Of a stretch of DNA of 64,000 nt, positions 4,066 to 43,291 are shown one piece after another (positions within the stretch are counted from its first letter, which is position 1; the number at the start of each line of letters is the position of its first letter). A program made the translations under genes and the position numbers. Location of the stretch: the NCBI GenBank assembly GCA_951406725.2, contig OX597827.1, positions 24,428,001 to 24,492,000 on the forward strand, given 5' to 3'. Source of the DNA: Octopus vulgaris (lineage: Eukaryota). The notes beneath the pieces are model-generated. The model saw only the letters and a program-made list of their open reading frames with translations. It was not told the origin of the DNA and did not search any database.

Positions 4066-5099
4066 TGTTTGATCAGGTTTGACTTGAGACTGACTCAGGG
4101 TTGACTCAAGGTTGACTCAAGGCTGACTCAGGGTAGATCAACAAAAGTAACAGTAGCAACTGAAGTGGAAACCAACCTGAGGTTGTAGAAAAAGACGCCC
4201 TGGGCACCACTTTGAGAAAATGTCTTCATCCTTAGTCCCAGGCCAACCATAGCCACACATATATGACTCCTTGCTCTTCCTCAAAGTTTAAACCCTAATT
4301 CTGAACCTGGCATCACATTTTTATCTCTGCAAGACCATCTGATCATTGTTTAATTAAGGCAGATCTTCACACCTTTTTAAAATCTAGAGGTGAGGAGTAG
4401 TGCTATGACCACATTCAGGACATCTGAGATGAGTAAAAAAGAAAGGAGGAATTCATTTTCAAACTAGACCAGGAGTGTACCCCACTAAAGGTACCCAAGG
4501 ATCCGGTAAGGGCTAAAACTAGGGGATAGATGAGTGAATAAATGTTTCTTCTTGAAATTAATCAGGCAGGGCAAAATCTCTGCTAATTCTTACCTCTAGC
4601 TGTTGGTGTGCTTCTGGGGTCAGTGCTGCAGCATGGCACCTTGGGCAAGTGTCTTCTGTCAATAACCTTGGGCCAACCAAAGCCTTGTAAGTGGATTTGG
4701 TAAAGGGGAAACTGAAAAAAACCTGTTGTGTGTGGGTGTGTGTGTTTGTCCCCTGCCATACTTGATAGCTGGTGTTGGAGTGTTTACATCCCTGTAACTT
4801 TGCAGTTCGGCAAAAGTGACTGACAGAATAAGTACCAAACTTTAAAAAAAAAATATGTACTGGGGTTGATTCATTCAATGAGAAATTCTTCAAGGCACTG
4901 CTCCAGCATGGCCACAGTCTAATGGATTGAACAAGCAAAAAATATAAGATAAAGCCATTGATAAAGCCTTTGCCAAACCATTGAGCTGTTTGATCAGGTT
5001 TGACTTGAGACTGACTCAGGGTTGACTCAAGGTTGACTCAAGGCTGACTCAGGGTAGATCAACAAAAGTAACAGTAGCAGTTGAAGTGGAAACCAACCT
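4066..5099. repeat. Direct duplication of about 113 bp (4066-4178 and 4987-5099), each copy with four TGACTCA in 11-bp units
   Basis: The two copies differ at two adjacent bases; offset 921 bp. Confidence 0.9.
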
Positions 5100-5192
5100 T
5101 TAACCTGTCTCGGATTCTCCATACACTTTCTTTGTCTACCACTGAGTAACTAATAAAAACATGTGTCTTTGCTCTTGCACGGACCGTCTCCT
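5098..5192 (-). CDS. ARM-TIR gene internal exon G, start of TIR domain (K-ETVRARAKTHVFISYSVVDKESVWRIRDRLK)
   Basis: TTCTTTACAG acceptor; AAG|GTTGGT donor; 95 nt, phase 1 to 0. HVFISYS followed by an amphipathic helix matches TIR betaA-alphaA. Confidence 0.88.
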
Positions 5193-6061
5193 CTGTAAAG
5201 AAGAAAGAAAAAAAACAGGAATTTCATTTTGGGATTGAATTTTCACTTTTTTAAAAATTTTGGAAATAATTTTTGTTTACAAAATAAAATGTCAGCAAAT
5301 GGATTTCAAGGAGAATAATTTGAATAAAGGTCCTCCTTTTCAAGTCAGACAGACTCAGAAGTCTGTTAGTTTTTTTTTTTTTTGGCGCATATATTTCCCT
5401 GCTTAGATGTGACACTGGTCTGTCACAGAATCACCCATTTTTCCTGAGGAGACTGGAGCTGGGTGAAATGAAGTGTTTTGCTCAAGAACACAATTCAGGA
5501 ATCAAAACCACAACCTCACAATCATGGTTCCAACACCCAAACCACCAAGCCATGTATCTCCATGAGAATATGTAAAATATATTTAAAATAGATTTTTAAA
5601 TAGAATTGGGAATTTTAAAAAGATTTATAAATATTTAGCAATAATTATTACTTTGAAACAGAATGTTAATCCTTTTGATATCAAGCCCCCAGAAATGGCC
5701 CCTAATTATCTGTTACGAACTGCCTGTTTAAGAATAATCTAAATCAATGGTTCTCAACTGGGGTCCATATGTCCCTTAGAATTTTGAAATTTAAACAGAG
5801 TTTTTAATTAATTTTCTGTAGAATTATAAATTTAGACAAAATTATGAATATCAAACAGAATTATAAACTTGAAACAGAATTTTTAGTTTTAGACAGGCTT
5901 CTGAATTTTAAATAGAATTTTGAATTTTCTATAGAATTATAAATAACAAGATTTTAACCGTCCAAATAAAATTCAATACTTTGAATATTGTTATCTATTT
6001 TGTTTTTTTGAAAAAAAGCATTAAACAGAAACGAAAGTGAGAAAGAAATGAAACATCTTAC

Positions 6062-6317
6062 TGTCAACCTCCGTTACTTGTGTTGCTCCATTTAACAACC
6101 ACAGCACCCCTTTAACATTTGCACTGACTAGTTTGTCTTTGTTGTCTTTGAGAGATTCCAGTAGTGTCACCAACGCTTGTTCATCATTTATTAACCTTTC
6201 GCGTACATTTTCGTCAAACATTAACGTCCACAGAATCCTTGCAGCTGAGCATTGTTCGCGGACGTCATCAAATTGTAACATACGACTTAGCATTGATAAT
6301 ATTCCACCATCCACAAT
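6062..6317 (-). CDS. ARM-TIR gene internal exon F (IVDGGILSMLSRMLQFDDVREQCSAARILWTLMFDENVRERLINDEQALVTLLESLKDNKDKLVSANVKGVLWLLNGATQVTEVD)
   Basis: TTCTTAG acceptor; ACA|GTAAGA donor; 256 nt, phase 0 to 1; two armadillo-like repeats. Confidence 0.9.
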
Positions 6318-6726
6318 CTAAGAATTAAAAAAAAAAAACAATATATACAACTGTAAAAAAAAGTGGTAAAGAAGAAAGAACACCAGTGACATCTAGGATT
6401 TTATCTTTCATTATTAATTGCTTCAGTCTGTAGTCATTCTGGGGCAGTGCCTTGAAAATTTTGGTCAAATGAATCAACCCCAGTAGTTTTATTTGCTAAA
6501 GCTTGGCACTTATTCTATCAGTCTCTTTTGCCAAACTGCTAAGTTACTACTGTTTATGTAAACACACCAGCACTGGTTGTCAAGCAGTGGTGGGGGACAA
6601 ACATTGGCAAACAGAAACACACACACACATGTATATATACATACATACACACAAATGCACATATATGCATACACACACACACACACATATATTTACATAC
6701 ATACACACAAATACACATATATGCAT

Positions 6727-6779
<53 letters not shown>

Positions 6780-8178
6780 CATACACACAAATACACATAT
6801 ATGCATACACACACACTCATACATATATATATATATATACACACACACACTCATACATATATATATACATACACACAAATACACATACATATTAGGAAGG
6901 GCATTCATCGGTAAAAACCTTGCCAAAACAGACATAGAAGCCTGGTGCAGGCTCCTGCCTGGTGAGATCTTGTCAAACCGTCCAACCCATGCCAGCATGG
7001 AAAGCAGGCGTTAAAGGATGATGATGATGATGATGTGTTTCTTTCAGTTTCCGTCTACCAAATCCACTCACAAGGCTTTGGTCGGCTTGAGGCTATAGTA
7101 GAAGACACTTGCCCAAAGTGCCACGCAGTGGGAATGAACCTGAAACCATTTGATTTAGAAGCTTCTTAAATGCACAGCCAGGCCTATGCCCAGATGTTTC
7201 ATATATTCTACAGAATTTCAAGATATTCTGTAAAAGTTTTTTTTTTTCTAAGTAACAGAGTTGCAGAAAGAAACAAACAAATTATGGTATTTAGCTGTGA
7301 ACCTTCATATTCAGATTTCAAACCCTGCAGGGATCCTCTTTGTATTTATCTCTCCAGGGATCAATAGAATAAGTACTATTTGAGTACTATTTGGGGATAA
7401 GGGTCAACCTATTTGTTTCTGTTCTCCACAAAGATTATGTGCTATTTGAGGGCAGGAAAGGTGGGTCACTGCAACTGAGTAGGCCCCCAGCAAAAAAACA
7501 TGGGACCTAATGCTTCTGTTAGAAGTAATGATTTATGATAGAGGTTCCCAAACTTTATCAGGCTGCCACCCCCTTGACACTCAGGCCACATTCCTCAAGC
7601 CCCCACCCCAACAAACCATCCCAAACATAAACCTCTTTCTGAAGCAAATTCAAAGCATTTCACAAACATAATCTAACGAACCCATTATTTTATTGTTTTT
7701 ACATGAATTGTTACTCCATTATTACCCCCACTTTTCCTCAATGCCCCCCTTGGAACTTTTCACCCCCAGAGGAGCAATACTGCTCACTTTGGGAACCACT
7801 GATTTATGACTTCAAAGTACGCTGGACGAAATGCTCAGTGGTATTTCACCGGCAGCTATGTTCTGAGTTCAAATTCCGCTGAGGTCAAATTTGTCTTTTA
7901 TCCTTTTGGGGTTGATAAATTAAGTTCCAGTTGAACGAATAAAGCATTAGACAAAATACCTTATGGTAACTAAGCTGCATATCTTTAGGTTTTCAGTTCA
8001 AATCACATTAGGTCCAACATCCTTTACAGGGGTTCGTCAAGCTGAGTTCTAGTTCAGTTTCTGGGATTATATAATCAACACTAATATTCATGTCCCAAAT
8101 AGGAAGCGTCCTTGGGCTTGTATTAAAGATATCAATATTTACATCATGTTTGATATGGAAAATATTTAATCTCTTTAA

Positions 8179-8394
8179 CCGTTTAGCATTCAGATTCTTC
8201 TGTCAAATAGAATAATCCTTGTTCATTCCCATTGTCTTGAATTAATCCTGAATTACCTTGTGGCTTTGAGATTTCAATGATGAGATTGTCTATTTTTAGA
8301 ATGATACTGCAGGGTAGGTGTAAGAGGCCAGGCATAAAACATGAAACATGAAGAATATTTTGGGCTGGATACAGATGGTTTAAATGCTGAAGGG
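8179..8394. mobile_element. piggyBac-type MITE of a second family (other copies about 41160-41380, 43455-43655, 44600-44815, 44831-45046)
   Basis: TTAA flanks; TIRs close to CCCTTTAGCATT/AATGCTAAAGGG; shared internal sequence across five copies. Confidence 0.75.
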
Positions 8395-9060
8395 TTAAAG
8401 ATCATCATCATCATCATCATCATCATCATTGCCCCCCACCCTCCTCTTCATCATCATCAATGTTATCATCATTGCTATCATCATCATTACCATTGCCGTC
8501 ATCATTGTCATCACCATCATCATCATCATCGTCATCATCATCACCACCACCATCATCATCATCGTTTAACATCCGTTTTCTATCCTGGCATGGTTTGGAT
8601 GGCTTGACTGGAGTTTGCAAGCCAGAGAACTGCATCAGTCCCTAGTTATCTGTTTTGGCAAGGTTTCCATGGCTGGATGCCCTTCCGAATACCCACCACT
8701 TTACAGAGTGGACTGGGTGCTTTTTATGTGGCACCATCACCAGTGCTTCATATGTGACACAGGTGTTTTAATGTGACTCCAGCATGGATGCTTTTCACGT
8801 GGCACCTGCCCTCTGAGTTAGCAAGACAGAGACCTCTCAACTGAGAGAGGGAATGAAACTAAAAGATGAGAGTCTGCTAGGGGAACAGAGGTAGCCCTCT
8901 TTCTGTTGAGGAGATACATGGTGACTCCTATAGGACAAACAAAGAGAGGAAGGTAGAAGAGAGTTAGAGAGAGAGATGGAGAGACTGAGAAAGAGAAGTC
9001 TTAATCTCAAAGAAGCATAAGTTTAATTCCTTCAGAATAAAGAACAGAATATGATCTTAA

Positions 9061-9227
9061 CCCTTTCGTTACCAACCCGGCTGAAACCGACTCTGGCTCT
9101 GAGTACAAATGTCTTGTTTCCATAAGTTTTGAATTAAAATTTTCCACCAAATCTTAGTCACAATTTATGTTCCTAATACTAACTGAATGATAACTAAGTT
9201 ATTTTACTAAATTCAGTAACGAAAGGG
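9061..9227. mobile_element. piggyBac-type MITE
   Basis: TTAA duplications (9057-9060, 9228-9231) and perfect 12-bp TIRs CCCTTTCGTTAC/GTAACGAAAGGG. Confidence 0.85.
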
Positions 9228-9242
9228 TTAAAGTAAGTTCAC

Positions 9243-9376
9243 CTTTAATTTGTTGGAATCTGTGACAGCCAACTTTTCCAGGCCTTGCACAATCTCGTAT
9301 GGTGTGAAACCTTTGTATCGTCTTTTATTGCAGTCGAGAGCTTTATCAAGCCATTGGAGCATACACAAAATGCTCC
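9243..9376 (-). CDS. ARM-TIR gene internal exon E (G-SILCMLQWLDKALDCNKRRYKGFTPYEIVQGLEKLAVTDSNKLK)
   Basis: TTCCTCAG acceptor; AAG|GTGAAC donor; 134 nt, phase 1 to 0. Confidence 0.87.
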
Positions 9377-9713
9377 CTGAGGAAGAAATAAAAGTCGCGA
9401 CAATCTTTATAAAACAAGCAAACATAAAAAAAAAGAAACAACAAAATCAAGTACAAAATTAACATGAAATGTTTAAATGTAGGGGCAGACGTGGCATTCA
9501 TCATAGGCATAAGGTCAGGAATTTGTGTGGTAGGAGAAGGGTTGAGTAAATATACCTCAGCATATGACTGGTACTTACTTATGGACCCTCATACTCAGAA
9601 AAATGATGGGGAACATGCTCTAGCTGGATTTGAACTCAGAATGTAAAGAAACATTAATAAAATATTGCAAAGTATTTTGTCAGGTGCTCCACCAACTCTA
9701 CTATTCATTATCT

Positions 9714-10095
9714 TAGTAGTAGTAGTGACAGTAGTAGTAGTAGTAATAGTAGTGGTGATGGTGGTGGTTGTAGTAGTAGTAGTACTGGTGTTGGTGGTAG
9801 TAGTAGAAGTAGTATTAGTAGTGGTGGTTGTGGTGGTAGAAGAAGTAGTAGTGGTGGTGATCGTTGTAGTAGTAGTGGTGGTGGTGGTAGTAATAGTAGT
9901 AGTAGTGTTGGTGGTAGTAGTAGTAGTGGTGTTGGTGGTAGTAGTAGTGGTGGTAGTAGTAGTAGAAGTAGTAGTGGTAGTAGTAGTGGTTGTTGTAGTA
10001 GTAGTGGTGGTGGTAGTAGTAGAAGTAGTATAAGTTGTGGTGGTGGTGGTAGTAGCAGTGGTAGTAATAGTAGTAGTGGTGGTGGTGGTAGTAGT
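9714..10095. repeat. (GTA/GTG)n trinucleotide microsatellite
   Basis: Directly visible. Confidence 0.95.
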
Positions 10096-10494
10096 TAAGC
10101 AAGTGTGATACAAAGTGAATCAATAAGCTTACAAGTGAAGGATGTTCAACAGATAAGAAGTTATATTTTGGTTATTTATGAGGAAGACAGGGGGGGAGGG
10201 AGAGAGAGAGAGAAGGAGGGTGAAAGCATAAGGAAGGTGTGTGTGTGTGTGTATATATATGTATGTACATATGGCCCAGTGGTTAGGCTGTTGCATTCAT
10301 GATCGCTAGATCGTGGGTTCGATTCTCTGACTGGGTGGTGCATTGTATTCTTGAGCAAAACACTTCATTTCATCTTGCTCCAGTGCCCCTTTCAATCAGG
10401 GGGGAATGTTAGCCTGCTTGCCTTGCCAGCAGCATGATGTCATTTAAAGGCTAAAACAATGTACAATGTAACCAGTGATGTATCATGTGATCAT

Positions 10495-10537
<43 letters not shown>

Positions 10538-10578
10538 AGAATTCAAAAAAAAAAAAGACGAAGACAGGTGGTGTAGAC

Positions 10579-10620
<42 letters not shown>

Positions 10621-10950
10621 GTTTACGGAAACGTGAAACTCAGAGTAACAGGTTTTGTTGAATTTTCTGCTGCTTTAAATAAAGCATATTACTCTACCAC
10701 TGATATTTGAGTACTCTTTTTTCCACCTTGTTTCACATTTATGTGTTTACTCCGGTATATATATATATATATATATATATGCTAGATCAGTAGCCACTAC
10801 ACACATTTTTTTCTCTCCTTGTTTTTTCTGTGTAGAAGAGCGTAGGCTTGAAACGTAAAAGACTTTTTCAATTCCTGAGCATTATACTAATACATCTGTT
10901 TATTTTGTACACCCCCTGTCTTCGTCTTTTGCTTTTTTCGTGAATTTTCC

Positions 10951-11007
<57 letters not shown>

Positions 11008-11421
11008 CAATATGGAGCAAATAATTCATGAGAAAATAATTTGCAAAGATATCACTGACTCTATTATTATCTAGTGTAAAAATTTTAAAATTATGATAAC
11101 AGAATCAATAATATAGACGATTGCAGGCCCCCAAAATAAATATATATATAAGAAGTTGGACAAGGGAATAAGAAATTATATCATGAATTTCATAGCTTAT
11201 AGCTGTTTCTGTTACAAGGTTCAATGCACTCATCTCCCTATAGCTTCATTAGAGCTTCAAATACAAAATGCTGAAACAGCTGTAAGCTAAATAAAGTCCA
11301 TAAGTGTTTCTTCCTTTGTCATTCTAATTTCTTATTACTGCTCTGTCCGTGATTAACACTTCTTTCTGACACGTTTGTATACTGAGTTCTGGTACCAGGT
11401 GATTAGTATCACTATGTTTAA

Positions 11422-11423
<2 letters not shown>

Positions 11424-11470
<47 letters not shown>

Positions 11471-11520
11471 TAATAGTAATAATAACAATAATGATGATGA
11501 TAATGATAATAATAATGATG

Positions 11521-11557
<37 letters not shown>

Positions 11558-11670
11558 TGATGATAATAATGATGATAATAATAATACTAATAATAATAAT
11601 GATAATAATAATACTAATAATAATAATGATAATGAAAATAATGATAAAAATAACAACAACAACAACAACA
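11424..11670. repeat. (ATA/ATG)n microsatellite
   Basis: Directly visible. Confidence 0.95.
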
Positions 11671-11685
11671 ATATATATATATATA

Positions 11686-12047
11686 TTGTATTTCAGGATG
11701 GTCATTGTTCTTTTTTTTTTTTGCCAAATAAACACATGCACTGTATATTTGTTCTTCACTCATTTATTATTGTTCTTATTCTAACTCTTGTCCATTGTCC
11801 GGAAATCTTTTGTCACACACCAGTGACCTCTCCAGCGACACTTTCCATCTTTGTGTGTGCTCTTGCTCCGCTTAGTCCATTCTCAGATAATGGAAGAGGT
11901 CACAGACATGTGATGAAAGACTTCTGGACAATGGACATGAGTTAGAATAAGAACAGTAATAAATGAGTGAAGAACGAATAAATCGTGCATGTGTTTATTT
12001 GGAAAAGAACAAAAAAAAAAAAAGAAGACTATCCCTAAGTACAAAAT
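11686..12047. repeat. Inverted repeat (about 150-bp arms, about 60 bp spacer)
   Basis: CCAAATAAACACATGCAC...GTTCTTATTCTAACTC...GTGACCTCT pairs with AGAGGTCAC...GAGTTAGAATAAGAAC...GTGCATGTGTTTATTTGG. Confidence 0.85.
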
Positions 12048-12406
12048 CTGTTTCAACACACAGTTTCACATTATGAATCTTACAACACTAATTCATAAAT
12101 GGGTATATATATAATAAATGTGGCTAGATACAATATAACATCAAAAAGGAAGACTTCAGTTCTCACTAATAGTGACTGAGGGTCCATTGTAGCACCTACA
12201 TTGCTAGAAATAAGTGTCAAGACCCTTGTAGCCACAAACATAGCACAGGTCTATGTACTGATAGGGGAGTTAACTGCCCCATAGTAAGCGAGTGTGCTAA
12301 ATTGGCATGTCAGTTTCGCTTGAAATCAAAGCTCATCAGTATTACTACTACATTGCTTGTAGTTAAGTCAAATCCTCTTGTCAGTAGATAGATTATTACC
12401 ATAAGA

Positions 12407-12443
<37 letters not shown>

Positions 12444-12495
12444 ACACACACACAAAGAGAGAGATGGAGAAGAAATAATGAAAATGCAGCCTCAC

Positions 12496-12607
12496 CAGTT
12501 TCCTCAATTAATGTCTGGTTGTCTTCCTCTTCAACGATGTATGCCATAGTCATCATAGATAGGACCTTAAACATTTCATCTTTTGAAGAAATAAATGTCT
12601 GAATCAC
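12496..12607 (-). CDS. ARM-TIR gene internal exon D (VIQTFISSKDEMFKVLSMMTMAYIVEEEDNQTLIEET-G)
   Basis: TTTCAG acceptor; CTG|GTGAGG donor; 112 nt, phase 0 to 1. Confidence 0.88.
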
Positions 12608-12789
12608 CTGAAAGTTGATAATGAGCAGCAAATGTTTATGGGGGACATAATGATAATGATGATCATGACGATGATAATGATGAAGATGATGATAACAATA
12701 GTAATAATTATTATAATAATACCCTCCAAACTGCTGACCAATTACATGTCTAACAGCTATATCTAAAATACTAACATCCATCATTACTG

Positions 12790-14870
12790 ACAATATGTAC
12801 CACTTTCCTGACGGATAACAAGATATTCCCCCGTGAACAAAAAGGTTGTTAACATGGCTCCTATGGTTGTGGAGACCAACTTTTAATCAATAAAATGGTT
12901 CTTGAGGACTGACATGAACAATGCTAGAATCTTTTTATTGCATGGATTGATTACAAAAAATATACAAAAAACTGTTCAACAACCATTCCTCCATAGCTGG
13001 ATTGAGAAATTCTTGGATATGAATAAAATTTCTCCATTTACTGGTATTTTTATGTTGAATAGCATAAAGCAATAGGTAAGAACTCTTATCATCATCATTG
13101 TTCGACTGTGGTCGAGACAATAGAATTTACTATGTTACGCCAGACTTCATGGTCCATCATGGCATTATGGAGGTCCTGTTGCTGGATGCCTGTATCCCTG
13201 GAAATTACATCAAGGTAGGAGAGTGTGTGCCCTCTGGTATCATGAGCAGATGGCTTCCAGAGGAGAAGAGTAGAAATTACCTCGTTTTAAGCTCTACAAC
13301 AATGTCCAGCAAACTGGACTCTTCTCCCTTTCACAAGATGATACAGGTAGTAGTTTCCTATATATTTGTACTTTGGTTGGATGATGCTTCCATGAGAGAT
13401 TTTGAGCTCTCATAAGGAGGCGAGTGTAAATTCCATCCAATCGCCTCTCAAGCTTCTTTGATAATGTCCAGGTTTCTGAGCCATATAGTAGAATTGGTTT
13501 GACCGTGGCTTTGAAGATTTTAAGTTTGTAATCTCTACTTAGATTTGATGACCAGATCTTATGCATATCATTACAGGCTGACCAGGCCATACCCTTTTTA
13601 GTTAGAAAATCTTTTCCAGATGATGATATGTATAACAAGTTCTATGAACGCTGGTGACACAGATGTAAACTGCAGCATCTCTCAAAGTGATTCTCTGTTA
13701 CCATTACTCTTTTGAATGAGTTCTTTCTCTCCTAAGTAATCTGCTGATTAACCAATCATTGACAGGTCACATTTGTATCAAGAATCACTGGGGCCTTGTA
13801 GGATATTTGTCAAGCAATGCCTTACTTCTCCATCTATTTTGCAGCTCTGAGAGTCCCTTTTGTGTGGTTTGTGTTTTTACCAGTTTCGTCTATCACATTA
13901 AGTTCTTCTCTTTCATCAAGCTTCTCTTCACTCTCGTTCATATATACTCTGTACATGATACAGAATATATAAAGGACAACTCAATCACCTCCTTTACACA
14001 TGGATGATCCAAAACTTTATGAAAGATGGTCAACAACTGAAATGACTTTTAATTGTGGTAAACCAGTTCAGTTTGGAATGGTGTTTGACTTTCATAAATG
14101 TGCTAAAGCCACATTCTTTAAGTGAAAGACTCCTAAAAACAAACAATATAGAGATAGACAAGTCTACCGACATCAAGGATTTAAAATCTGGAAAAACATT
14201 ACCAATATTTAGGGGTATGTGAAAGGGATGGGCATCCAGCAAAAAAAAAACAAACAAAAAAAAACAGAAAGAATATTATTGTAGAACTAGAGCTACCCAA
14301 AAGAATAAACAGGATTGATGCAATCAATATCTTAGCTGTTGTGACCTTCAGCATAAAATGCAGCATAAAAGGGGCCATCTGTGGGATCAATAAAATTGAT
14401 AATTATACATGGTCCTCACAGTGCATCACTTATATAACTGAAAGGCAAATGTAGAAAGACTATACATCCTAGAAAAGGGTGGAGGACATGGACTGATGCA
14501 GCTGCAACTGTCTCTAAAGCTAGCAACCAAAGAGGGAGAGACCTGTCTAAAGAACGCCAGTGGCTGGATACTTAAACTTGTCTGCAAATTATGAAAGTTC
14601 CCAAAGAGAGTTCTCAGTATGAGAAGAAACAAAGAAGTATGCAAAGAAATTAAAAATGAACGAGACTGAGGAGAGACTTAATGAAAGAGATTAATGAAAG
14701 AGAAGAAGCAACTGTGATAAAGGAAACTGATAAAAACACAAACCAAATGGAATCTCAGAGCTGCAAAATAGATGGAGAAGGCATTGCTTGACAAATATCC
14801 TACAAGGACCAGTGATCCTTGATACAAATATGACCCACTCAGGATCTGTGTCTGCCCACCACAAACTGCC
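12790..14870. mobile_element. Decayed fragments of an older R4/Dong-like LINE in both orientations
   Basis: EQKG...GCGDQLLINKMVLED...AWIDYKK at about 12830-12960 (+); KANVERLYILEKGGGHGLMQL at about 14440-14510 (+); 13780-13920 is a diverged inverted copy of 14690-14835. Confidence 0.7.
13110..13630 (-). mobile_element. LINE (RTE-like) C-terminal fragment
   Basis: KGMAWSACNDMHKIW...KLKIFKATVKPILLYGSETWTLSKK resembles the RT thumb region of RTE-group LINEs. Confidence 0.75.
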
Positions 14871-14972
14871 AAGAAAGGATCATAAAAATGGTGCTGATCC
14901 TGCCTGCCAGACTATCACCCACCCCGAAAATTTCAGGCCTTGTGCCCATAGCAGAAAGGATTATTATTATTA

Positions 14973-15069
<97 letters not shown>

Positions 15070-16746: not shown

Positions 16747-16782
<36 letters not shown>

Positions 16783-16861
16783 AAATATTATCATCATCAT
16801 CATTATTATCATTATTAGCATTATTATTATTATTATTGAGTGAGAGAGCAGTGCATGCCAT

Positions 16862-19218: not shown

Positions 19219-19293
<75 letters not shown>

Positions 19294-30405: not shown

Positions 30406-30409
30406 GCAA

Positions 30410-32762: not shown

Positions 32763-33582
32763 ATATATATACATACACATACCTATATATATATGTGTGT
32801 GTGTGTGTGTATATACACACACACACACACACACGCTTATATCTTCTCTTCTTTAGTTTTTCCATTTCTAACCCAACCGTTTGGTACGAAAGCAAGGGAA
32901 ATGTATCAACAGAACACTGCAAACTCAGCTAATTTTAGTTATTTGTTTTTTACTTCATTTTATTTTAGAAACCAAACCTTCAGCCCGTCTCCCACAACCA
33001 TCATATCCCACCCTTCCCCACCACCATTACCACCATCCTATGAAAAAAAAAAAAAAAGGAAATGACAAGAAATGGGGCAAAACAAAGACACAAAATAATG
33101 ATAAGACAAAGCAAACAAAAGCCGAGTTGTCCCTCAATCTATTTGCATTGTTTGTATGTTTACGTGATGTTTTGCAAGTTGTGTGATGTCTGCACAGTTA
33201 TGAGAATACCAAAGGAATTAGGATTTATGTTGTTGGCTTTGAAGAAATAAAAGACTAAACATTTATCTGACTAAAGATTGATGTAATCCTGTCTCTCGTA
33301 AAAGACAATAAGTAAATGGATTTCACTTGGTGTCAACGAAGACTGTTCCTTTTGTTTGATTAACCGAATTCCTGCCAGTGGAAATCTAAAATTTCAGATT
33401 CGAGGATGTCTTTGGTCAAGGTCATCATCATCATCATCAAATGTCCTTTTTCCATGCTGGTATGGGTTGGACGGTTCAAAAGAAGCTGGCAAACTAGAGA
33501 GCAGGGTCAGGCTCCAATTGGCAAGGTTTCTATTGCTGGATGCCTTTCCTAATGCCAACCACTTTACAGAGTGCTCCACTGG

Positions 33583-33829
33583 GTGCCTTTTATGTGGAAC
33601 CAGAATAGGTGCTTTTTATGTGGCACCAGCACAGGTGCTTTTTATGTGACACCAGAATAGGTGCTTTTTATGTGGCACCAGCACAGGTGCTTTTTATGTG
33701 ACACCAGAATAGGTGCTTTTTATGTGGCACCAGCACAGGTGCCTTTTATGTGACACCAGCATGGGTGCTTGTTATGTGGCACCAGCACAGGTGCTTTTTA
33801 TGTGACACCAGAATAGGTGCTTTTTATGT
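33583..33829. repeat. 26-bp minisatellite with alternating units (52-bp dimer) inside an RTE 3' UTR fragment
   Basis: GTGCTTTTTATGTGGCACCAGCACAG alternates with GTGCTTTTTATGTGACACCAGAATAG. Confidence 0.85.
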
Positions 33830-34686
33830 GTTTGATCATATTGTATCTATGACTTGAACATTTTCCCTCTCTCTCTCTCTCTCTCAGTGTCTTGCTATCA
33901 CATACTCAGACACACATACACACACACACATACGCACACATACACATACACACACACACACACATTCAAAGCCACATACACACAGACACATGCACACAGA
34001 CATGCGCACACAGATACAGACACACACACACACACACACACAGACACATGCACGCAGATACACACACACATTCACATTCATGTTGACTTTCACCAGAATC
34101 TGCAATAAAAATGTTTTGTTGTTTTTCTCTCCGCTCTGTGCCAGCAGGGTGCCACCCTCTTGTTGCATCTTTTATTTCTTACTTGTTTCTGTCATTAGAC
34201 TGTGGCCAGACTGGGGCAACACCTTGAAGAATTTTTACTTGAATGCATCTATCCTGATACTGTTTTTTTTTTAAAATCTCGTTCTTTAAAAAAATGCCAA
34301 GTACTTTAAGCCTGCTTCTTATTCTGTCAGTCTCTTTTGCTGAACTGCTAAGTTACAGGCATGTAAATACAACAACACCAATTGTCAAGTGTTGGTGGTG
34401 TACAAACACAGACTCACACACACATGATGGGCTTCTTTCAGTTTCCGTCTGCCAAATCCACTCACAAGGCTTTGGTTGGCCTGAGGCTAAAGTAGAAGAC
34501 ACTTGTCCAAGGTCCCACACAGTGGGACTGAACACAGAACCATGTGGTTGCGAAGCAAGCTCCTTACCACACAGCCATGCCTGTGCCTATATGCATACAT
34601 ATACATACATACAAACATATATATATTCATATATTACTCTATGTATATTTATACATACATACATTTATGTGTGTGTGTGTATATAT

Positions 34687-35068
34687 GGAAGCACTCAGTC
34701 GGTTACGACGACGAGGGTTCCGGTTGATCCGAATCAACGGAACAGCCTGCTCGTGAAATTAACATGTAAGTGGCTGAGCACTCCACAGACACGTGTACCC
34801 TTAACGTAGTTCTCAGGGATATTCAGCGTGACACAGAGAGTGACAAGGCCGGCCTTTTGAAATACAGGTACAACAGAAACAGGAAGTAAGAGTGAGAGAA
34901 AGTTGTGGTGAAAGAGTACAGCAGGGATCACCACCATCCCCTGCCGGAGCCTCGTGGAGCTTTAGGTGTTTTTGCTCAATAAACACTCACAACACCCGGT
35001 CTGGGAATCAAAACCGCGATCCTATGACCGCGAGTCCGCTGCCCTAACCACTGGGCCATTGCGCCTCC
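34687..35068 (-). mobile_element. Third tRNA-derived SINE family, full length (second copy 44125-44499; diverged copies about 29620-29905, 40550-40860, 59985-60290)
   Basis: A box TGGCCCAGTGG, B box GGTTTGATTCC; the two main copies are closely similar over about 370 bp. Confidence 0.8.
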
Positions 35069-35071
35069 GTG

Positions 35072-35122
<51 letters not shown>

Positions 35123-36137
35123 ATATACACACACACTAAACCATTTTTTATTTTCTCTCCCTGTTTATTTCTGTGTTCCTTTCTGTTGAAGAGCGTAGGC
35201 TCGAAACGCAAAAGACTTCCTCACTTTCCGAGTGTTAAACTAATACATCAGTTTGTTGTTTACACACCCATCTTTGTCTTTTGTTTTTTTGTAAATTCTC
35301 ACTAGTTATACACACACATAAATGTATGTATGTATAAAACAGAATAACTCAACAAAATATTTGTCAAATTCTGAAACTTTCTATGTTCAAACATTTTCGT
35401 TGATAACATGAGACCAAGAGATTAATGAGAAAGCTTCTTCCCTTTCAAGTCAATTTCTATGTAAAATATTGACAGAAAAAGAAAAAAATTGTTCTCTGCA
35501 GAAATTGGTGAAACCTCTACAAGGAAGAATGCTGTTAAGCAATGAGAATAAATGTCAAGTGTTCTTTGGGTATTCTAAATGGTTAGAACCGGAATTCTTA
35601 TGGGGTCCATTCAACATTCAACAGCATATGGTTACATGCCACTGTTTTACTTGTATCAGATTTTTAATCTCAAGTGGGAACAAGTTTGCTTCTTGAATCA
35701 AAGAGGAAGTCTCTTCATAGTTGCTTGACTTGCTAGAAATAACCACAAATATCTCTCACAAATCACATTCTACCATATCAAAATAAAATTTAAAAAAAAA
35801 TCTCACATTGTATTTAAATCAAAGGTCTGCTGGTTTAGGGTTGAGTTAGGACCAAACAATTAGTGAAGCCCTCATTGTCCACCCACGGTGGTAGAGGTGG
35901 AGGTGGCCGGGCTGGTGGTAGTAGGGTGGGGATAGTAGTTGTAGTTGTGGTTGTGGTGATATTCCTACTAGTGGTGGTCATGGTAGTAGTAGTTGTTGTG
36001 GTGCTGGTGGTAGTAATTCTTAGTCTTGTTATCCAGGTGGTGGAGGAGGAACAGACAAGGAGGAATTGGTCACTCCCCCTAGTGTTAAGTTAACCCTTTT
36101 TAGTGCCTTTGTATGGACCCTTCCAGTATACTTTTGT

Positions 36138-36495
36138 CTAACATATCACATCTCAAACATTTAATCACATATAAAGAAACATAATGCTTTTTCTTATACA
36201 TAGAATACGGATGCACAAAATCACAGAAGATGAAACAAAATTTCATTTAGACAAGCATATAGAAAAAAGCGAATACAGTCTGTCGCAATATAAAAAATTA
36301 ATACTTCAGTGTCTAAAAAAATTTTTTTACATTATTAAACCTAAAATAATAAATATATAAAAAATATAAAAGTACATATATAAGAAACATATAAATACAT
36401 AAGGTATAGATAAAGGTTCATCGATTAAGAATTTTTTACGATTAAAAGTTACTTTTTATGATAAAAGGAAATCTTTTAAGACAGGCTGGTGCCAA

Positions 36496-36527
<32 letters not shown>

Positions 36528-37010
36528 CATATTTACAGTCCCTGTGGCCATTTCAAGGGTTCATCAACATAGTTAATGCACAAGGGTGCATTACGGTAAT
36601 GACTCCTTCATTTTTTTTTTTTTTTTTTGCTTGGACACCGGCTTTTCTTAAAAGGTTTCCCTTAAGGTTTCCCTAATCTTAAAAAGTAACTTTTAATTGT
36701 AAAAAATTCTTAATCGATGAACTTTTATCTGTACCTTATGTATTTATATGTTTCTTATATATACGTATCTTTATATTTTTATATATATTTATTACTTTAG
36801 GTTTTATAATGTAAAACATTTTTTTAGATGCTGAAGTATTAATTTTTTAATTTTTATCTTGTGATAGACAGTACTCACTTTTTTTCTATATGCTTGTCTT
36901 AATGAAATATTGCTTCATCTTCTGTGATTTTGTGCATCCGTATTCTATGTATAAGAAAAAGCATTATGTTTCTTTATATATGATTAAATGTTTGAGATGT
37001 GATATGTTAG
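36138..37010. repeat. Long fold-back inverted repeat (about 380-400 bp arms, about 85 bp spacer)
   Basis: CTAACATATCACATCTCAAACATTTAATC... at 36138 is the reverse complement of ...GATTAAATGTTTGAGATGTGATATGTTAG ending at 37010; similarity continues inward to the poly-A and poly-T runs. Confidence 0.9.
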
Positions 37011-38447
37011 GTGGATGACCTAAATTTATTGTTTGTTCTACAACCAAAGTTTGTTAAACTCGTCTCATTTACTTGAGCACTTCTGTTGCAGTCCTATTAA
37101 CCCTCTTGTTCCTAATAAGAAACAATCACTATTATTATTAACCCATGCTAGCATGGAAAACGGATGCTAAACGATGATGATGATGATGATGATGATGATA
37201 CACACTCATAGAGGAATTTTAAAAAATTTTAGTTAGGAATTTTGGATTGGTCCTAGTGATGTAGGGCGACATGCCATGCCTGAGGAGACTATTGAGTCAA
37301 GTACATCAACATCAAAATCAAATCAATATGGAAATTGTAGTTGTGATATCCATGCCGGTAGTGCGTAAAAAGCACTATCTGAACGTGGCCAATGCCAGTT
37401 CCACTTTGACTGGCACCATAAAAAAGCACCATCCAATCATGATCGATGAAAGCTCTTTTGGCCCCTATGCTGGTGGCATGTAAAAAGCACCAATTGCACT
37501 CTCAGAGTGGTTGGCGTCAGGAAGGGCAACCAGCTGTAGAAACACTGCTAGGTCAGATTGGGGCCTGGTGCAAACTCTTGGCTTCCCAGACCCCAGTCGA
37601 ACTGTCCAACCTATGCCAGCATGGAAAACGGCCGTTAAACAATGATGATGATGATAATGATGATTGTAATTTTTGTGAACTACTTTATTGTAAAATTCCT
37701 AGAGAGTTCTGTTTATCCTAATGAGGAGGGCATTGTGGGGGTCATTGCTGAGATCTGCTTTGACTTGTAATCAGACTCTGGCAATGAATTCCTGAAATGG
37801 CCATAGATGCAGATGACATGTATGGAAGCGTGGAGTTATATTGAGTCAATTTCTTTATTAACCATGAGGTTGAGAAAAAGGGGGGATGATACGAGGACAA
37901 ACAGAACAAACATTGGGGTCAGGATATCAAATGAGACAAAACGTATGAATAAACAAACAATTAAAATATATACAATTAAACGAGAATGAGTGATTAACAA
38001 AAAATGAAGGAGTTCGCGGTTGACCCCACAAACCACATAGTCACACTGAAGACTTTGCTTTCTCCTTCTTTTGTTCTCGTTTAGACAGGTTCTTCCACTT
38101 GCAACATACTTGCTACAAACTTCCATCTTTTACGAAATGCGACAGGCATTTCTTCTCCAACCTTATTTTCCATTTCATGTGGAAAATGAAAAAGTCGATT
38201 AGCTCGAGACTGGAGATTTTGATGTTTGTTCTCTAATCAATGATTTTTGTCTCTGACTCAATTTCACTTAAGCACTTCTTTTTTGCAGTCCTAGATATAT
38301 TTTTTTGTTTCCATAAAAAGAAATGAAAATTATTTCTTGTCATATACATATATAATAAACAGAATGAGATAAGATCATTTATAAAGAGAAGGTCTGTATT
38401 TTGTATCTTCTCTACAATAATTATTACTTAAACATTTTTTCGCACCC

Positions 38448-38493
38448 TCTCTGATGAAGGGATATATAAAATATCCCAGAAACAGCTGTAAGA
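38448..38493 (+). ncRNA. Minimal hammerhead ribozyme motif
   Basis: UCU-CUGAUGA-A-GGGAUAU-AUAAA-AUAUCCC-A-GAAA-CAGCUG-UA|AGA: 7-bp stem II closed by an A.A mismatch, palindromic ACAGCUGU, 3-bp stem I. Confidence 0.55.
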
Positions 38494-39456
38494 CCTTCCC
38501 TTTATAAATGATCTGAAAACTATTCACAGCCTTGAATTTTTTTATCTCATTCTGTTAATTATTATATATATGCATGTTAATACATGATCCACATTGGACT
38601 CCTCATTCGTATCATTATTGAACCTAGAGTTTAACCATGGTCTGTCTATAGCTCTAACTCAGAGTTACCTGACACCTTAGGGTCATCTTGACTCCAACAT
38701 CTCTCATACTCTATACATACGAGGGTGAGTCAATAAGTAATACCATTTTGTTTAGGAAAGGTATAATTGATGTATCATACATCAAAATGAAGCTGGTCCT
38801 CTGTAGATCACATCCCTACTTCTCCACATAGTCACTGTTTCTCTCAATAGTACTCACAGGGTGGTTGGCGTTAGGAAGGGCATCCAGCTGTAGAAACACT
38901 GCCAGATCAGACTGGAGTCTGGTGCAGCCTCCTGGCTTCCCAGACCCCAGTCGAATCATCCAACCCATGCTAGCATGGAAAATGGACGTTAAACGATGAT
39001 GATTATATATATATACATATATATAATAGATATGCTTGAGAAGACTTGTTGAGTCGTTAAAACTGATATCATAGCTGTGGCCAGTGACCCCTGACTGGCT
39101 CCCATGCCAGTGGCACCATCTGAATGTGGCTGATGCCAGTATCCTCTGATCGGATCCCGTGCCGGTGGCATGTAAAAAGCACCATCTGAATGTGGCCAAT
39201 GCCAGTGCCCCATGACTGGTTCCTGTGCTGGTGGCACGTAAAAAGCACCCACTACACTCTCAGAGTGGTTGGCATTAGGAAGGGCATCTAGTTGTAGAAA
39301 CATTGCCAGATCAGATTGGAACCTGGTGCAGCCACTGGCTCTTCAGACCTCAGTCAAACCGTCCAACTCATGCCAGCATGGAAAATGGACGTTAAACTAT
39401 GATGGTGATGATGATATATATGTGTGTGTACACAGAAATTAAACAGAGAAAGAAAA

Positions 39457-39561
<105 letters not shown>

Positions 39562-39598
39562 TTGAGATGTAAAGAGAGTGAATAAGCATAAAACAAAC

Positions 39599-39679
39599 CT
39601 TGCTATGGATGGCGTTTAAATATGGTTTGTGACCACAGTTGCAGGTTAACAACCTCACTGCATCTGACTCAGCAAGACT
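39599..39679 (-). CDS. ARM-TIR gene internal exon B (SLAESDAVRLLTCNCGHKPYLNAIHSK)
   Basis: TTTTCAG acceptor; AAG|GTTTGT donor; 81 nt, phase 0 to 0; joins exons A and C in frame. Confidence 0.8.
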
Positions 39680-42600
39680 CTGAAAATAGTTGAGGAATCT
39701 CTTTAATGGATTGCCCAATAAGGAAAATAAGAAGTGGCAATATACAAGGTGGGCCACAATTCATGACTCACTTATATTAGTTATATTTCTTTATTATTGC
39801 TTATTGTTATTGCATTGTTTAAATTTAATTATTTTATTTCTTAAGAAACACATATTAATAAATATTCTTTTCTACTCTAAGCACAAGGCCTGAAATTTTT
39901 TGGGAGAGGACCAGCTGATTAGATTGACCCTCAGTATGCAACTGATACTTAATTTATCGACCCCGAAAGGATGAAAGGCAAAGTTGACCTTGGTAGAATT
40001 TGAACTCAGAACGTAAAGACAGATGAAATACCGCTAAGCATTTCACCTTGAGTGCTAACGTTTCTGCCAGCTCGCTGCCTTGCTTATTAAAAAATATTCT
40101 TTTCTACTCTAGGCACAAAGCTTGAAATTTTTGGGGAGGTGTCAGTTGATTAGATTGACTCCAGTATGCAACTGGTACTTAATTTATTGACCCCAAAAGG
40201 ATGAAAGGCAAAGTCGACATCGGAGGAATTTGAACTCAGAACGTAGCGGTAGATGAAATACCGCTAAGCATTTCGCCTGGCATGCTAATGTTTCTGCCAG
40301 CTGGCTTCTTTGTATATTAATAAATATTAATATATTAATAATTATAGCTAACAAGTGAGTCATGAATTCTGGCCCACTCTGTGTGTGTTCATATGTGCAC
40401 ATGTGTACTCCCCTGCCGCCCACCTGTACAGGTATTCATTACATATATCCATTACTTTCAACAGTAGTGGGTAATTTGAGGTTGTGTTACCAAGCAGAGG
40501 TTACTGAACCTGGAATGCTGTTGGCTGGTTGTAGTAATATTCATCATGATGGCTTCGTGGTTAGGACACTTGGCTCTCAATTGTTCGGTCATGAGTTCAA
40601 TTCCTAGTAGCACTTTGTGTCCTTGAGCAAGACACTTTATTTTATGGTGCCCCAGTCCACTCAGCTGGCAAGAATGGGTTGCATTTGTATTTCAAAAAGC
40701 CAGCCTCATCACATTCTGTGTCTCATTGAATCTTGCTGAAAACTACGTTAAAGGTATGTATGTCTTTGGAGTACTCAGCCACTTGCGTGTTGATTTCCCG
40801 AGCAGGCTGTTCAGTCGATTGGATCAACTGGAACACTCATTGTCGAAACCGGTGGAGTGCCAGTTTGATTGTTGTTGTTGTTTAGCCCAAGTCAGGTCTG
40901 GCATGGTAGATATATGATCGAAGACATTCCAGCAGTGACCATCACGTTTCAACAGATGAAATAAATCTGAGAGCAAGATATTTCCTGCAGAAACGAAGAT
41001 CGTGTAGAACCTCTCTCATAACACTGAGTTCTGTTGTTCTCTTGCAAGCAGCGAGCCATGCACGATGAAGCAGAACTTTGAATATAGACATTCCGGCCAT
41101 GACGGTTAAATCTATTATTCAAACACAGTATATCTGGGACTACATCACCCAATGTGTTCTAACAGGTTACTCTATCAAATGTAATGGCTATTTATGAAAA
41201 TTACTTCTAATTTATCAGGTATTATATTGTAGCTTAAAGATTTCAATGATGTGATTGTTTATTGTTTATTTCTACAATGGCATTGTAGGGCAGGTATGAG
41301 ATGCTAGATCTGGCTAATTTGAACAAAAACCAGGTAAAATATTTGGGCTGGATATATGTCCAGTTTAAATGCTAAAGAGTTAAAACAATAAAAGCTTGTG
41401 ATTCGGGAGGTACTTAGTTGCTATTTCAAGCAAGTCAAGGAATTGAACAATGGCACAGAAGCTTCCCTTTGGTACATATCCCCTGCCACTCTTGTTCACT
41501 TGATAACTGTCTTTTGACGTTGGAAGATGGAGAAAACCATTGTTTCCAGGAGATTCAAGGAATTATGGAAGGTATAAGAAAGTTCGATGACATCTTGGGA
41601 AAGATGCTCTGAGTCTGGCAGTACTCAAGACTTAATACTCTTCAAATGGAATAATGTTTGTCTTTGATGTGGATTGGTTCCATTGATAATGGTTTATTTG
41701 TTTCTTCTTTTCCATTCACTGATAAATGATATGGAGAAAATTGTAGACAGGCAAACAGTGATATGTGTGTGTATGTGTATAATAATGTCTTCCTATATCA
41801 TGTGATGTGTGTGTGTGAATATGTGTGTGCATGTGTGTGTTTGTGTGTATGTGTGTAAATACGAATATACACATTTGAGTTACGAATGTTTTTGAAATGT
41901 CATGAGAAAACTTAGTTTCTCAAGATAAATACTTGGAATTTTGGTTTCTCTCTGTGAGAATTTCTTGTTTTCATTGTAAACTTTCAGTAAAATTCCGTAT
42001 ATTTGAAATATTGCTGTGAAGAATAATTATTTCAAAATACTTTCTTCATGGCATGCCTCATGAAGTGTTGGCATTCAGTGATAGTGTGCCATTTGCAGAG
42101 ATTCCTCACTGTTATGCTGCGTTCACTATTTGTAAGGAACAGTTCTTGCTCAGTTTGTCTCTTTGACAGCTCCACCATCTTGGGTCAAGTGAAGACCAAG
42201 GTTGGGCATTTGGAATCTTGGGTGTCTGTCACTCACAGGTCTCAATCAGTTGAGCAAAGCAGATGGGGCTACATCAACCTTTGCATGCTACCAAGAGTCA
42301 ATGGTAGACCAGAAGAATTTGAACCCAGGGCCTAGGGACAACTTTTAGAAATCATGGGGTTTGTAGTGCCATGTTGAAGGCAGTGAAGGGCATTACCATA
42401 TGAAGTAAATTCAACAGACATGCCATCAAGAATGTGCTGAAATGGTGCACATCCTTTCTTGATGACCCTATAAACCTGCTAATATTTGGCATTCAACAAG
42501 TTCTGTCTGACCCATAAAAGTGTGGGAAAGTGGGCATTAAAGCGATTATATTCTAGTATGTTATAGACAGCCAAATGAACTGTGAAAATATAGACTGAAG

Positions 42601-43160
42601 TCCTTTACACAGAAGCATAATAATCAGGGAGTTTAATACCCTTTATTCACTCAACCATATTTATTCTGCAGATCCTTTTTTTTTTTTGAGTGGTAGAACC
42701 CTTTCCATGGTTCAATAGCACCTTGCCCTTCGGAGTCTTTAGTGGAATATTATTTGGTGCAAGAATCCATTCCAGACTTCCAGTCTGAAGATAATTGATG
42801 AGATTATCTTCCCTCTCCCCACTCTCTCCTTCCGTTCCTTCCAGCCATCTAAAGCAATGGTTCTCAACCGTGGCCCCCAGGGATGCATGTAGCCCTCAAG
42901 CATCCTTCTAGTGAACCCTGACAATCTTCTTTAATTGGCTTGTGTTTTACTTTTTTTTGGTGAGGCCCCTTAAAAAACCCAGTTTTTTGGATCTGACCCA
43001 GATACGAAAAAAAGGTTGAGAACGACTGATTTAAACCCTTCCCTGTCAAACTAATCCATAAGACAAAACCCAAGTGCAAAACTATTGAAAGGTTTCAGGC
43101 TATATTGATGAGAGATTCCCAAGAGTAAGAGAAATATCTGAAGAATGGAAACCAACTTAC

Positions 43161-43291
43161 CAGAGCTAACTGTGCACTGGCATCAGAGAAATTCCACATT
43201 GTGTTGTAGGCGTAATAAGTGGGGAACCAGATTTCATCGTTTTTAAAGATTCCGATTGTATTTAAAACTTTGAGCATCTTCATAGAAACAA
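43161..43291 (-). CDS. ARM-TIR gene internal exon A (xVSMKMLKVLNTIGIFKNDEIWFPTYYAYNTMWNFSDASAQLAL)
   Basis: Pyrimidine tract plus CCAG acceptor; CTG|GTAAGT donor; 131 nt, phase 1 to 0. Confidence 0.85.

What the first reader, a model, noticed from the sequence alone, without database searches (positions are those of the whole stretch)
5098..43291. Hidden ARM-repeat + TIR protein gene spread over more than 38 kb (SARM1-like parts, no SAM between them)
Seen: seven small exons splice in frame to about 302 aa of armadillo-like helices, running through a short linker into HVFISYS. Established: SARM1 is an ARM-SAM-SAM-TIR NADase whose ARM domain autoinhibits the TIR and senses NMN/NAD+, and invertebrates also carry poorly characterised ARM-TIR proteins. 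Inference: this is not canonical SARM1, because no SAM lies between ARM and TIR. It is a candidate ligand-gated TIR NADase or immune/neuronal signalling protein in a cephalopod. The catalytic glutamate region is not in the exons found, so activity cannot be judged here.
Basis: partly seen in the sequence, partly recalled or inferred. Interest (0 to 1): 0.72.

Follow-up and report, generated by a model that had tools for sequence, protein, structure and literature searches.

The report
Octopus ARM-TIR-SAM protein, SARM1 parts reordered
These seven exons are the middle of an already catalogued octopus gene whose protein carries the same three modules as the nerve-death enzyme SARM1 in a different order; it belongs to an old, untested family that likely cuts NAD+ when its copies cluster, and the octopus copy has a change that would likely weaken that activity.

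Summary
In detail: seven minus-strand GT-AG exons (908 nt, 302 aa) join in frame. They are exons 3-9 of a 14-exon, 206.6-kb gene for a 664-aa protein identical to RefSeq XP_029644698.1. The order is ARM (seven repeats), TIR, then one SAM domain. The putative catalytic Glu480 is present; its codon is split by an intron whose joint is seen in 3 of 4 runs laid. It is not SARM1: the O. bimaculoides orthologue is in uncharacterised TIR clade 10 of a published atlas, and that species has a separate true SARM1. Likely orthologues reach lamprey and lungfish. Most likely it is an assembly-gated NAD+-cleaving switch. In octopods the BB-loop Gly has become Pro (2 of 193 sequences), matching by eye SARM1's crippling G601P, so this copy may be weak or regulatory. 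The scan had already reported this gene's tail, and this family in sea urchin and oyster. No functional study was found.

The parts
1..64000 (-). The whole window lies inside the 14-exon ARM-TIR-SAM gene (G000 C14:24379195-24585751). Exons 1-2 lie beyond the window's end. Exons 10-14 (rest of TIR, Glu480, SAM, stop) lie 32.9-48.8 kb before its start.
   Evidence: tblastn of P0001 on 264 kb; exon table and 664-aa translation
43161..43291 (-). Exon 3, 131 nt, aa 130-173, second ARM repeat with the conserved W151/Y155/Y156/N159/W162/N163/D166 helix
   Evidence: 77.1 bits
39599..39679 (-). Exon 4, 81 nt, aa 174-200, ARM
   Evidence: 32.0 bits
23203..23301 (-). Exon 5, 99 nt, aa 201-233, ARM helix with K207/H214/N215
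   Evidence: 51.7 bits
12496..12607 (-). Exon 6, 112 nt, aa 234-271, ARM
   Evidence: 43.5 bits
9243..9376 (-). Exon 7, 134 nt, aa 271-315, ARM
   Evidence: 56.4 bits
6062..6317 (-). Exon 8, 256 nt, aa 316-401, last two ARM repeats and start of the linker
   Evidence: 73.3 bits
5098..5192 (-). Exon 9, 95 nt, aa 401-432, linker and TIR strand betaA (HVFISYS) with helix alphaA; carries V418 where the family has Trp
   Evidence: 20.5 bits

Best explanation
This is a real 14-exon octopus gene for an ARM-TIR-SAM protein, not SARM1, that likely works as an assembly switch: a ligand likely binds the armadillo groove, the SAM domain likely holds copies together, and the clustered TIR domains would then cut NAD+, probably more weakly in octopods than in other animals. 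Shown: gene structure, domain order, folds, family and clade, the residues present or changed. Inferred: ligand binding, SAM self-assembly, ARM autoinhibition, NAD+ cleavage and its damping by Pro447. The ligand is unknown; a protein or peptide is as likely as a nucleotide.
For: Gene; the exon 10/11 joint that completes the Glu480 codon is seen in 3 of 4 runs laid. Folds: AlphaFold mean pLDDT 79 gives an ARM solenoid plus TIR. The C-terminal domain (pLDDT 91) is a SAM fold: best Z 9.8, rmsd 1.8, 67 aligned, to SARM1 SAM1, tied with DGK-delta and PHC3, and 26 of 35 members hit Pfam SAM_3 at E<=0.05. ARM-TIR-SAM order holds in 169 of 193 homologues. Catalytic site: Glu at 480 in 188 of 193, S415 188, Y416 187, D441 183. 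The closest solved TIR by profile is the NADase Cat1 (E 4.9e-9), whose active-site S7, D33, S68 and E74 (PMC12162218) align with S415, D441, S474 and E480. ARM groove: 22 of 57 polar or aromatic positions on the groove helices are at least 85% conserved, against 5 of 74 on the other helices (46 sequences). Enzymatic TIRs need self-association (PMC8635717).
Against: The Glu is weak evidence, because the octopus Toll-like receptor TIRs have W-C-x-F-E at the same place. The Trp four residues before the Glu in Cat1, RPS4 and SARM1 is Asn in 127 of 193 and Ser in 33 including octopus. Octopus departs from the family at 8 of 59 conserved TIR positions, against 0-2 in nine other molluscs. These include W418V (Trp in 171 of 193) and G447P (Gly in 168, Pro only in Octopus and Argonauta). 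G447 matches SARM1 G601 by eye, and G601P reduces activity and multimerisation (PMC8266388). By structure the best TIR matches include non-enzymatic ones (Hydra TRR-2 Z 17.5, IL-1RAcPb 16.0, MyD88 15.7, against SARM1 TIR 15.2). No clade 10 TIR has been characterised (PMC13142454).
Confidence: 0.5

Rival explanations
1. The family cleaves NAD+, but the octopod copy has become a pseudo-enzyme. It would keep its ARM sensor and SAM, co-assemble with the consensus-type paralogue on C4 or other partners, and act as a regulator or brake.
For: G447P, W418V, T449N and N476S are shared by Octopus and Argonauta. All 9 sequences of the cuttlefish-containing cluster that cover the BB loop keep Gly447. The C4 paralogue reads SYQW, GSTL and SPNCRT-ESEY, the family consensus. 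The ARM departs at only 5 of 70 conserved positions.
Against: Glu480, Ser415, Tyr416 and Asp441 are kept, and the Octopus and Argonauta TIR motifs are nearly identical. Gly446 next to Pro447 may take over the loop role. The G601 equivalence is a by-eye alignment with a one-residue gap.
Confidence: 0.25
2. The whole family is a non-enzymatic cytosolic adaptor. The ARM binds a protein, and the TIR and SAM nucleate a MyD88/TIRAP-type scaffold for immune or stress signalling.
For: The family lacks the alphaC Trp. The Glu also occurs in octopus TLR TIRs. Top TIR fold matches include TRR-2, IL-1RAcPb and MyD88. The ARM resembles peptide-binding solenoids such as Vac8, APC and designed ArmRPs. Surveys list ARM-TIR among putative adaptors (PMC9334734).
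Against: The family sits in clade 10, apart from the clade 1 adaptors, and includes a slime mould, choanoflagellates, a green alga and a cryptist. The betaA, BB and alphaC pocket residues are over 94% conserved across 193 sequences. The best sequence-profile match is an NADase.
Confidence: 0.15
3. It is a functional double of SARM1: an NMN/NAD+ ratio sensor through the ARM, driving axon degeneration.
For: It has the same three modules. Its SAM is top-tied with SARM1 SAM1. Atlas features rank SARM1 clusters at 0.94, behind the family's own clusters at 0.98. Conserved aromatic and basic residues (K103, W110, W151, W162, K207) line the first ARM helices.
Against: O. bimaculoides has a separate ARM-SAM-SAM-TIR clade 8 SARM1. 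The ARM fits SARM1's no better than generic solenoids (7nal Z 17.6, rmsd 8.4, against Z 19-20, rmsd about 6). SARM1's BB-loop and EE-loop motifs (PMC7075850) are absent. No expression data point to neurons.
Confidence: 0.08

Closest known systems
TIR clade 10 of the eukaryotic TIR atlas (PMC13142454; section 5 read, Supplementary Table 1 rows searched)
   Same: The O. bimaculoides isoform X2 of this very gene (EP00106_P001990) is listed as Clade_10 with TIR 392-521 and SAM_3 578-611. All 11 rows found with two family motifs are Clade_10, including lamprey, oyster, Capitella, Physarum, choanoflagellates, a green alga and a cryptist.
   Different: The atlas only catalogues the clade and says it is uncharacterised. 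In the parts I read it gives no mechanism and does not discuss the octopod changes.
SARM1 / dSarm / C. elegans TIR-1 (clade 8 NAD+ hydrolase)
   Same: It has ARM, SAM and TIR modules; Glu480 corresponds to E642, Tyr416 to Y568 and Asp441 to D594 (by eye against the 6O0Q sequence). The SAM fold is top-tied with SARM1 SAM1.
   Different: Order is ARM-TIR-SAM, not ARM-SAM-SAM-TIR, with a single SAM. It is in a different TIR clade, has no E(R/K)LEAG or H(D/E)YQ motif and no W638 equivalent, and has Pro where SARM1 has G601. SARM1 exists separately in O. bimaculoides.
Invertebrate 'ARM-TIR' class (oyster survey PMC4346834, one figure-legend passage; Aplysia survey PMC9334734, passages) and ecTIR-DC families (Gerdol 2017, PMID 28109746, not held)
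   Same: ARM fold plus TIR in molluscs; 11 such genes are counted in Aplysia.
   Different: These are domain-count classes without function. The C-terminal SAM falls below Pfam cut-offs and is not part of the class name. Which ecTIR-DC number applies could not be checked.
Cat1 (CRISPR-associated TIR-CARF NADase; PDB 9MUD; PMC12162218, passages)
   Same: Closest solved TIR by sequence profile (E 4.9e-9); S7, D33, S68 and E74 align with S415, D441, S474 and E480.
   Different: Bacterial, with a CARF sensor for cyclic oligoadenylate and no ARM or SAM. It has Trp70 where this family has Asn or Ser. Its K121/Y122 were outside the aligned stretch.

Membership tests
SARM1 | Domain order ARM-SAM-SAM-TIR with C-terminal TIR | tested here: not met
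   ARM 73-392, TIR 409-540, one SAM 590-663; ARM-TIR linker median 23 aa in 169 homologues
SARM1 | TIR of clade 8 / group 24 | tested here: not met
   The orthologue is Clade_10 in the atlas table, and a separate Clade_8 SARM1 is listed for the same species
SARM1 | BB-loop E(R/K)LEAG and EE-loop H(D/E)YQ motifs (PMC7075850) | tested here: not met
   BB loop reads DVDCMGPS; no H(D/E)YQ in the TIR
SARM1 | Catalytic Glu (E642) | tested here: met
   Glu480, codon GAA; aligned with the Cat1 and RPS4 Glu by HMMER and with E642 by eye
SARM1 | ARM pocket for NMN/NAD+ (W103, R110, R157; PMC11874154) | tested here: inconclusive
   No residue-level structural alignment was available. The ARM fits SARM1 no better than generic solenoids. 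Conserved aromatic and basic residues exist on the groove helices.
SARM1 | Octameric SAM ring and ARM-TIR autoinhibition | not testable with these tools
   Needs cryo-EM or biochemistry
TIR clade 10 ARM-TIR-SAM family | TIR placed in clade 10 | tested here: met
   Supplementary Table 1 row 2585, the O. bimaculoides isoform of this gene
TIR clade 10 ARM-TIR-SAM family | N-terminal ARM solenoid and C-terminal SAM-fold domain | tested here: met
TIR clade 10 ARM-TIR-SAM family | Signature motifs SY, WxD, YK-x-S-x-x-CRxE and DGWLG (read from my own alignment of 193) | tested here: met
   departures at W418, G447, T449 and N476
Enzymatic (NAD+-cleaving) TIR domains | Pocket Ser/Tyr in betaA, Asp before the BB loop, Glu in alphaC | tested here: met
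   S415, Y416, D441, E480
Enzymatic (NAD+-cleaving) TIR domains | Trp four residues before the Glu (W638 in SARM1, W70 in Cat1); usual, but I did not establish that it is required | tested here: not met
   Ser476 in octopus; Asn in 127 of 193
Enzymatic (NAD+-cleaving) TIR domains | BB-loop Gly needed for the BE assembly interface (G601 in SARM1) | tested here: not met
   Pro447 in Octopus and Argonauta, Gly in 168 of 193 relatives; Gly446 is adjacent; equivalence by eye and through the RPS4/Cat1 alignment
Enzymatic (NAD+-cleaving) TIR domains | Measured NAD+ cleavage dependent on self-association | not testable with these tools
   Needs an assay
ecTIR-DC families (Gerdol 2017) | Assignment to a numbered family | not tested
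   Paper not held

The most novel reading that the evidence does not exclude
Animals have a second, old family of autoinhibited NAD+-cleaving switches, built from SARM1's three modules in a different order. It is shared with slime moulds and algae and kept as one orthologue up to lamprey and lungfish. In octopods this orthologue has evolved a natural equivalent of SARM1's G601P off-mutation and now restrains its active paralogue.
Probability: 0.25. Interest if true: 0.75.

Novelty: new member of a known kind. Interest (0 to 1): 0.45.

Why it matters
[quoted passage not shown] If this family cleaves NAD+, it adds a widespread NAD+-based signalling or cell-death switch. It would also show that SARM1's sensor-scaffold-enzyme logic exists in a second arrangement, and it would reach into vertebrates (lamprey, lungfish). 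The octopus, cuttlefish and paralogue comparison is a ready natural mutagenesis of the BB loop. The sequence itself is already catalogued and the scan has met the gene and family before, which limits the surprise.

Tried and rejected
Artefact or chance splicing: rejected. Canonical SARM1: rejected. Complex prediction of two copies of the SAM domain gave no answer (score 0.02 against a mark of 0.32, alignment not used, controls not folded). The run search listed no holder on record as RNA: 20 of 24 rows hold exon 8, and their kind is guessed or unknown. In run X1 the two downstream exons lay on separate contigs and no joint was listed. A degenerate pattern for the SARM1 alphaC motif (recalled, from no call) found 0 matches in G000, and the TIR_2 scan (23 matches of 35 candidates) showed no recognisable SARM1 exon. 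Neither shows absence, and SARM1 was not located in this assembly. Foldseek on the SAM model gave no match at E<=0.001; the listed rows were all SAM-containing chains. The first exon of isoform X2 was not found by a six-residue look-up. A look-up of earlier findings by sequence returned nothing. Literature searches found no functional study of an ARM-TIR-SAM protein; subscription papers are mostly not searched, and two wanted papers were not held. The first whole-gene translation used a wrong exon 2 start and was corrected (then 32). The first FastTree had a weakly resolved base.
Full report
1. Observation. The window is G000 C14:24428001-24492000 of a 2.8-Gb genome. A splice-site scan recovered seven minus-strand exons: 43291-43161, 39679-39599, 23301-23203, 12607-12496, 9376-9243, 6317-6062 and 5192-5098. 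They total 908 nt with matching phases and give 302 aa without a stop, ending past HVFISYS. A profile from 43 non-cephalopod homologues picks exactly these 7 of 2089 open segments, colinearly, at 20.5-77.1 bits. The next scores 5.9 and the reversed window's best is 2.4.

2. The whole gene. Exon 8 retrieved two proteins, from O. bimaculoides (P0001, 664 aa) and Argonauta. tblastn on 264 kb around the window gave 14 exons over 206.6 kb, all introns GT-AG, encoding 664 aa with six differences from P0001. The product is identical to O. sinensis XP_029644698.1 and contains an O. vulgaris entry as its last 626 aa, so the gene is annotated, as 'uncharacterized'. The Glu480 codon is split G|AA by intron 10. 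That 1239-nt intron is skipped exactly in contigs of 3 of the 4 runs laid, whose kind is guessed as RNA. Two of these contigs are 2890 and 3505 nt long; in the longer one about 1530 nt precede exon 10, enough for the 1296 nt of upstream coding sequence (inference).

3. Anatomy. AlphaFold2 on a 44-row alignment (pLDDT 79, pTM 0.67) shows a disordered N-terminus, about seven ARM repeats (73-392), a flexible linker, a TIR (409-540), a disordered spacer and a helical C-terminal domain. The ARM matches Vac8, APC and designed armadillo proteins at Z 19-20, rmsd about 6, and SARM1's ARM at Z 17.6, rmsd 8.4, so it shows no special likeness to SARM1. The C-terminal domain is below Pfam cut-offs. Modelled alone (pLDDT 91) it is a SAM fold, best Z 9.8 to SARM1 SAM1 and tied with DGK-delta and PHC3. 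Its profile hits SAM structures, and 26 of 35 members hit SAM_3. The order is ARM-TIR-SAM.

4. Family. The representative library holds 442 clusters at E<=1e-30; the best 150 of 5043 hits were returned. Pooled with 48 hits they make 193 sequences, chosen by likeness to P0001. With family-derived profiles, 169 of 193 read ARM-TIR-SAM. Named members come from molluscs, an annelid, nemerteans, a brachiopod, rotifers, echinoderms, a hemichordate, amphioxus, a tunicate, lampreys and lungfish. A tree of the 45 named rows (of 184 with enough coverage) groups the octopus protein with other lophotrochozoans, ambulacrarians, amphioxus, lamprey and lungfish. Support is moderate (UFBoot 93, SH-aLRT 82) and the root is a midpoint, so one bilaterian orthologue is likely but not shown. 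A paralogue lies on C4 at 176.27-176.32 Mb. In the TIR atlas (PMC13142454; section 5 and supplementary table rows read) the O. bimaculoides isoform of this gene is Clade_10, as are all 11 rows found with family motifs, among them Physarum, choanoflagellates, a green alga and a cryptist. The paper calls clade 10 uncharacterised. The same table lists a separate clade 8 ARM-SAM-SAM-TIR SARM1 for that octopus. The lead to clade 10 came from an earlier scan note and was checked here.

5. Catalytic site, for. Glu480 is kept in 188 of 193, with S415 (188), Y416 (187) and D441 (183). The best solved match to a 21-row TIR profile is the filament NADase Cat1 (E 4.9e-9), ahead of RPS4 and SARM1. Cat1's S7, D33, S68 and E74 (PMC12162218, passages) align with S415, D441, S474 and E480.

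6. Catalytic site, against. Octopus TLR TIRs also have Glu there. The Trp four residues before the Glu in Cat1, RPS4 and SARM1 is Asn (127) or Ser (33) in this family. By fold, scaffold TIRs match as well as SARM1's. Octopus departs from the family at 8 of 59 conserved TIR positions; nine other molluscs tested leave-one-out depart at 0-2, a cephalopod of the cuttlefish cluster at 7 and the annelid at 9. W418 is replaced in all cephalopod rows that cover it. G447 is Pro only in Octopus and Argonauta (2 of 193), while all 9 cuttlefish-cluster sequences covering it keep Gly. Counting back from strand betaC on the 6O0Q sequence, G447 falls on SARM1 G601, with one gap. G601P disrupts the BE interface and lowers activity and multimerisation (PMC8635717 section 9; PMC8266388 passages). 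Gly446 may compensate. The C4 paralogue reads as consensus at these sites (its splice joints were not checked base by base).

7. Sensor. Among 46 close homologues, 22 of 57 polar or aromatic positions on the groove-forming ARM helices are at least 85% conserved, against 5 of 74 on the other helices. W151, W162, N163, D166, K207, N215, E298 and W345 are invariant. That marks a binding surface (inference). Trp/Asn ladders are the usual peptide-binding pattern of armadillo proteins (recalled). SARM1 binds NMN through W103, R110 and R157 (PMC11874154 passages), and equivalence to those could not be tested.

8. Mechanism. Most likely (0.5) the ARM senses a ligand and restrains the adjacent TIR, the SAM pre-assembles copies, and released TIRs polymerise and cut NAD+, more weakly in octopods. 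Rivals are an octopod pseudo-enzyme or brake (0.25), a non-enzymatic adaptor family (0.15) and a true SARM1 double sensing NMN (0.08). All functional steps are inferred.

9. Prior knowledge. ARM-TIR proteins are counted in oyster (PMC4346834, one legend passage) and Aplysia (PMC9334734, passages). A TIR-SAM transcript was reported in amphioxus (PMC2575513, passages). ecTIR-DC families are cited in PMC6321704 and PMC6836662 (passages); the source paper was not held. SARM1's group motifs are from PMC7075850 (section 35). Eight searches found no functional study. The scan had already reported this gene's tail and the family in two other genomes; that is not independent support.

10. Verdict. A real, catalogued, functionally untested gene; not SARM1; a plausible assembly-gated NADase family with an octopod BB-loop change worth testing. 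Interest 0.45.

Noticed in passing
window 17277-18869, minus strand (intron 5): A 530-aa open frame of a reverse transcriptase (RVT_1 E 8.9e-20, weak zf-RVT), likely a truncated non-LTR retrotransposon, with an in-frame poly-Glu microsatellite.
   Followed up: partly
G000 C4:176274968-176317900 (L045, L048, L052, L053, L055): ARM-TIR-SAM paralogue whose ARM lies largely in one long exon (465-aa open frame), unlike the seven-intron ARM here. It appears to share the intron inside the catalytic Glu codon and keeps the consensus TIR residues.
   Followed up: partly
G000 C18:7600880-7601056 (L031, L058): A third TIR exon with family-like motifs (SYQW, CWMDIGQMGGG); the rest of the gene was not worked out.
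   Followed up: no
G000 C3:22.89-23.16 Mb (L022-L026, L028, L029): Tandem cluster of at least seven intronless TIR-containing frames of about 690-710 aa, likely Toll-like receptors.
   Followed up: no
proteins P0057, P0035 (lungfish XP_043933463.1, lamprey XP_032809682.1): Likely vertebrate orthologues with intact TIR motifs. No other jawed vertebrate appeared among the named hits, but most of the 193 hits were not named.
   Followed up: partly
window, introns throughout: About 14% of the window is tandem repeat, with many short dispersed repeats; the tail of another reverse-transcriptase-like frame lies near 13297-13641 on the minus strand.
   Followed up: no
exons 1-2, beyond the window's end: RefSeq lists three N-terminal isoforms (664, 647, 626 aa) that differ only in the disordered leader.
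   Followed up: partly
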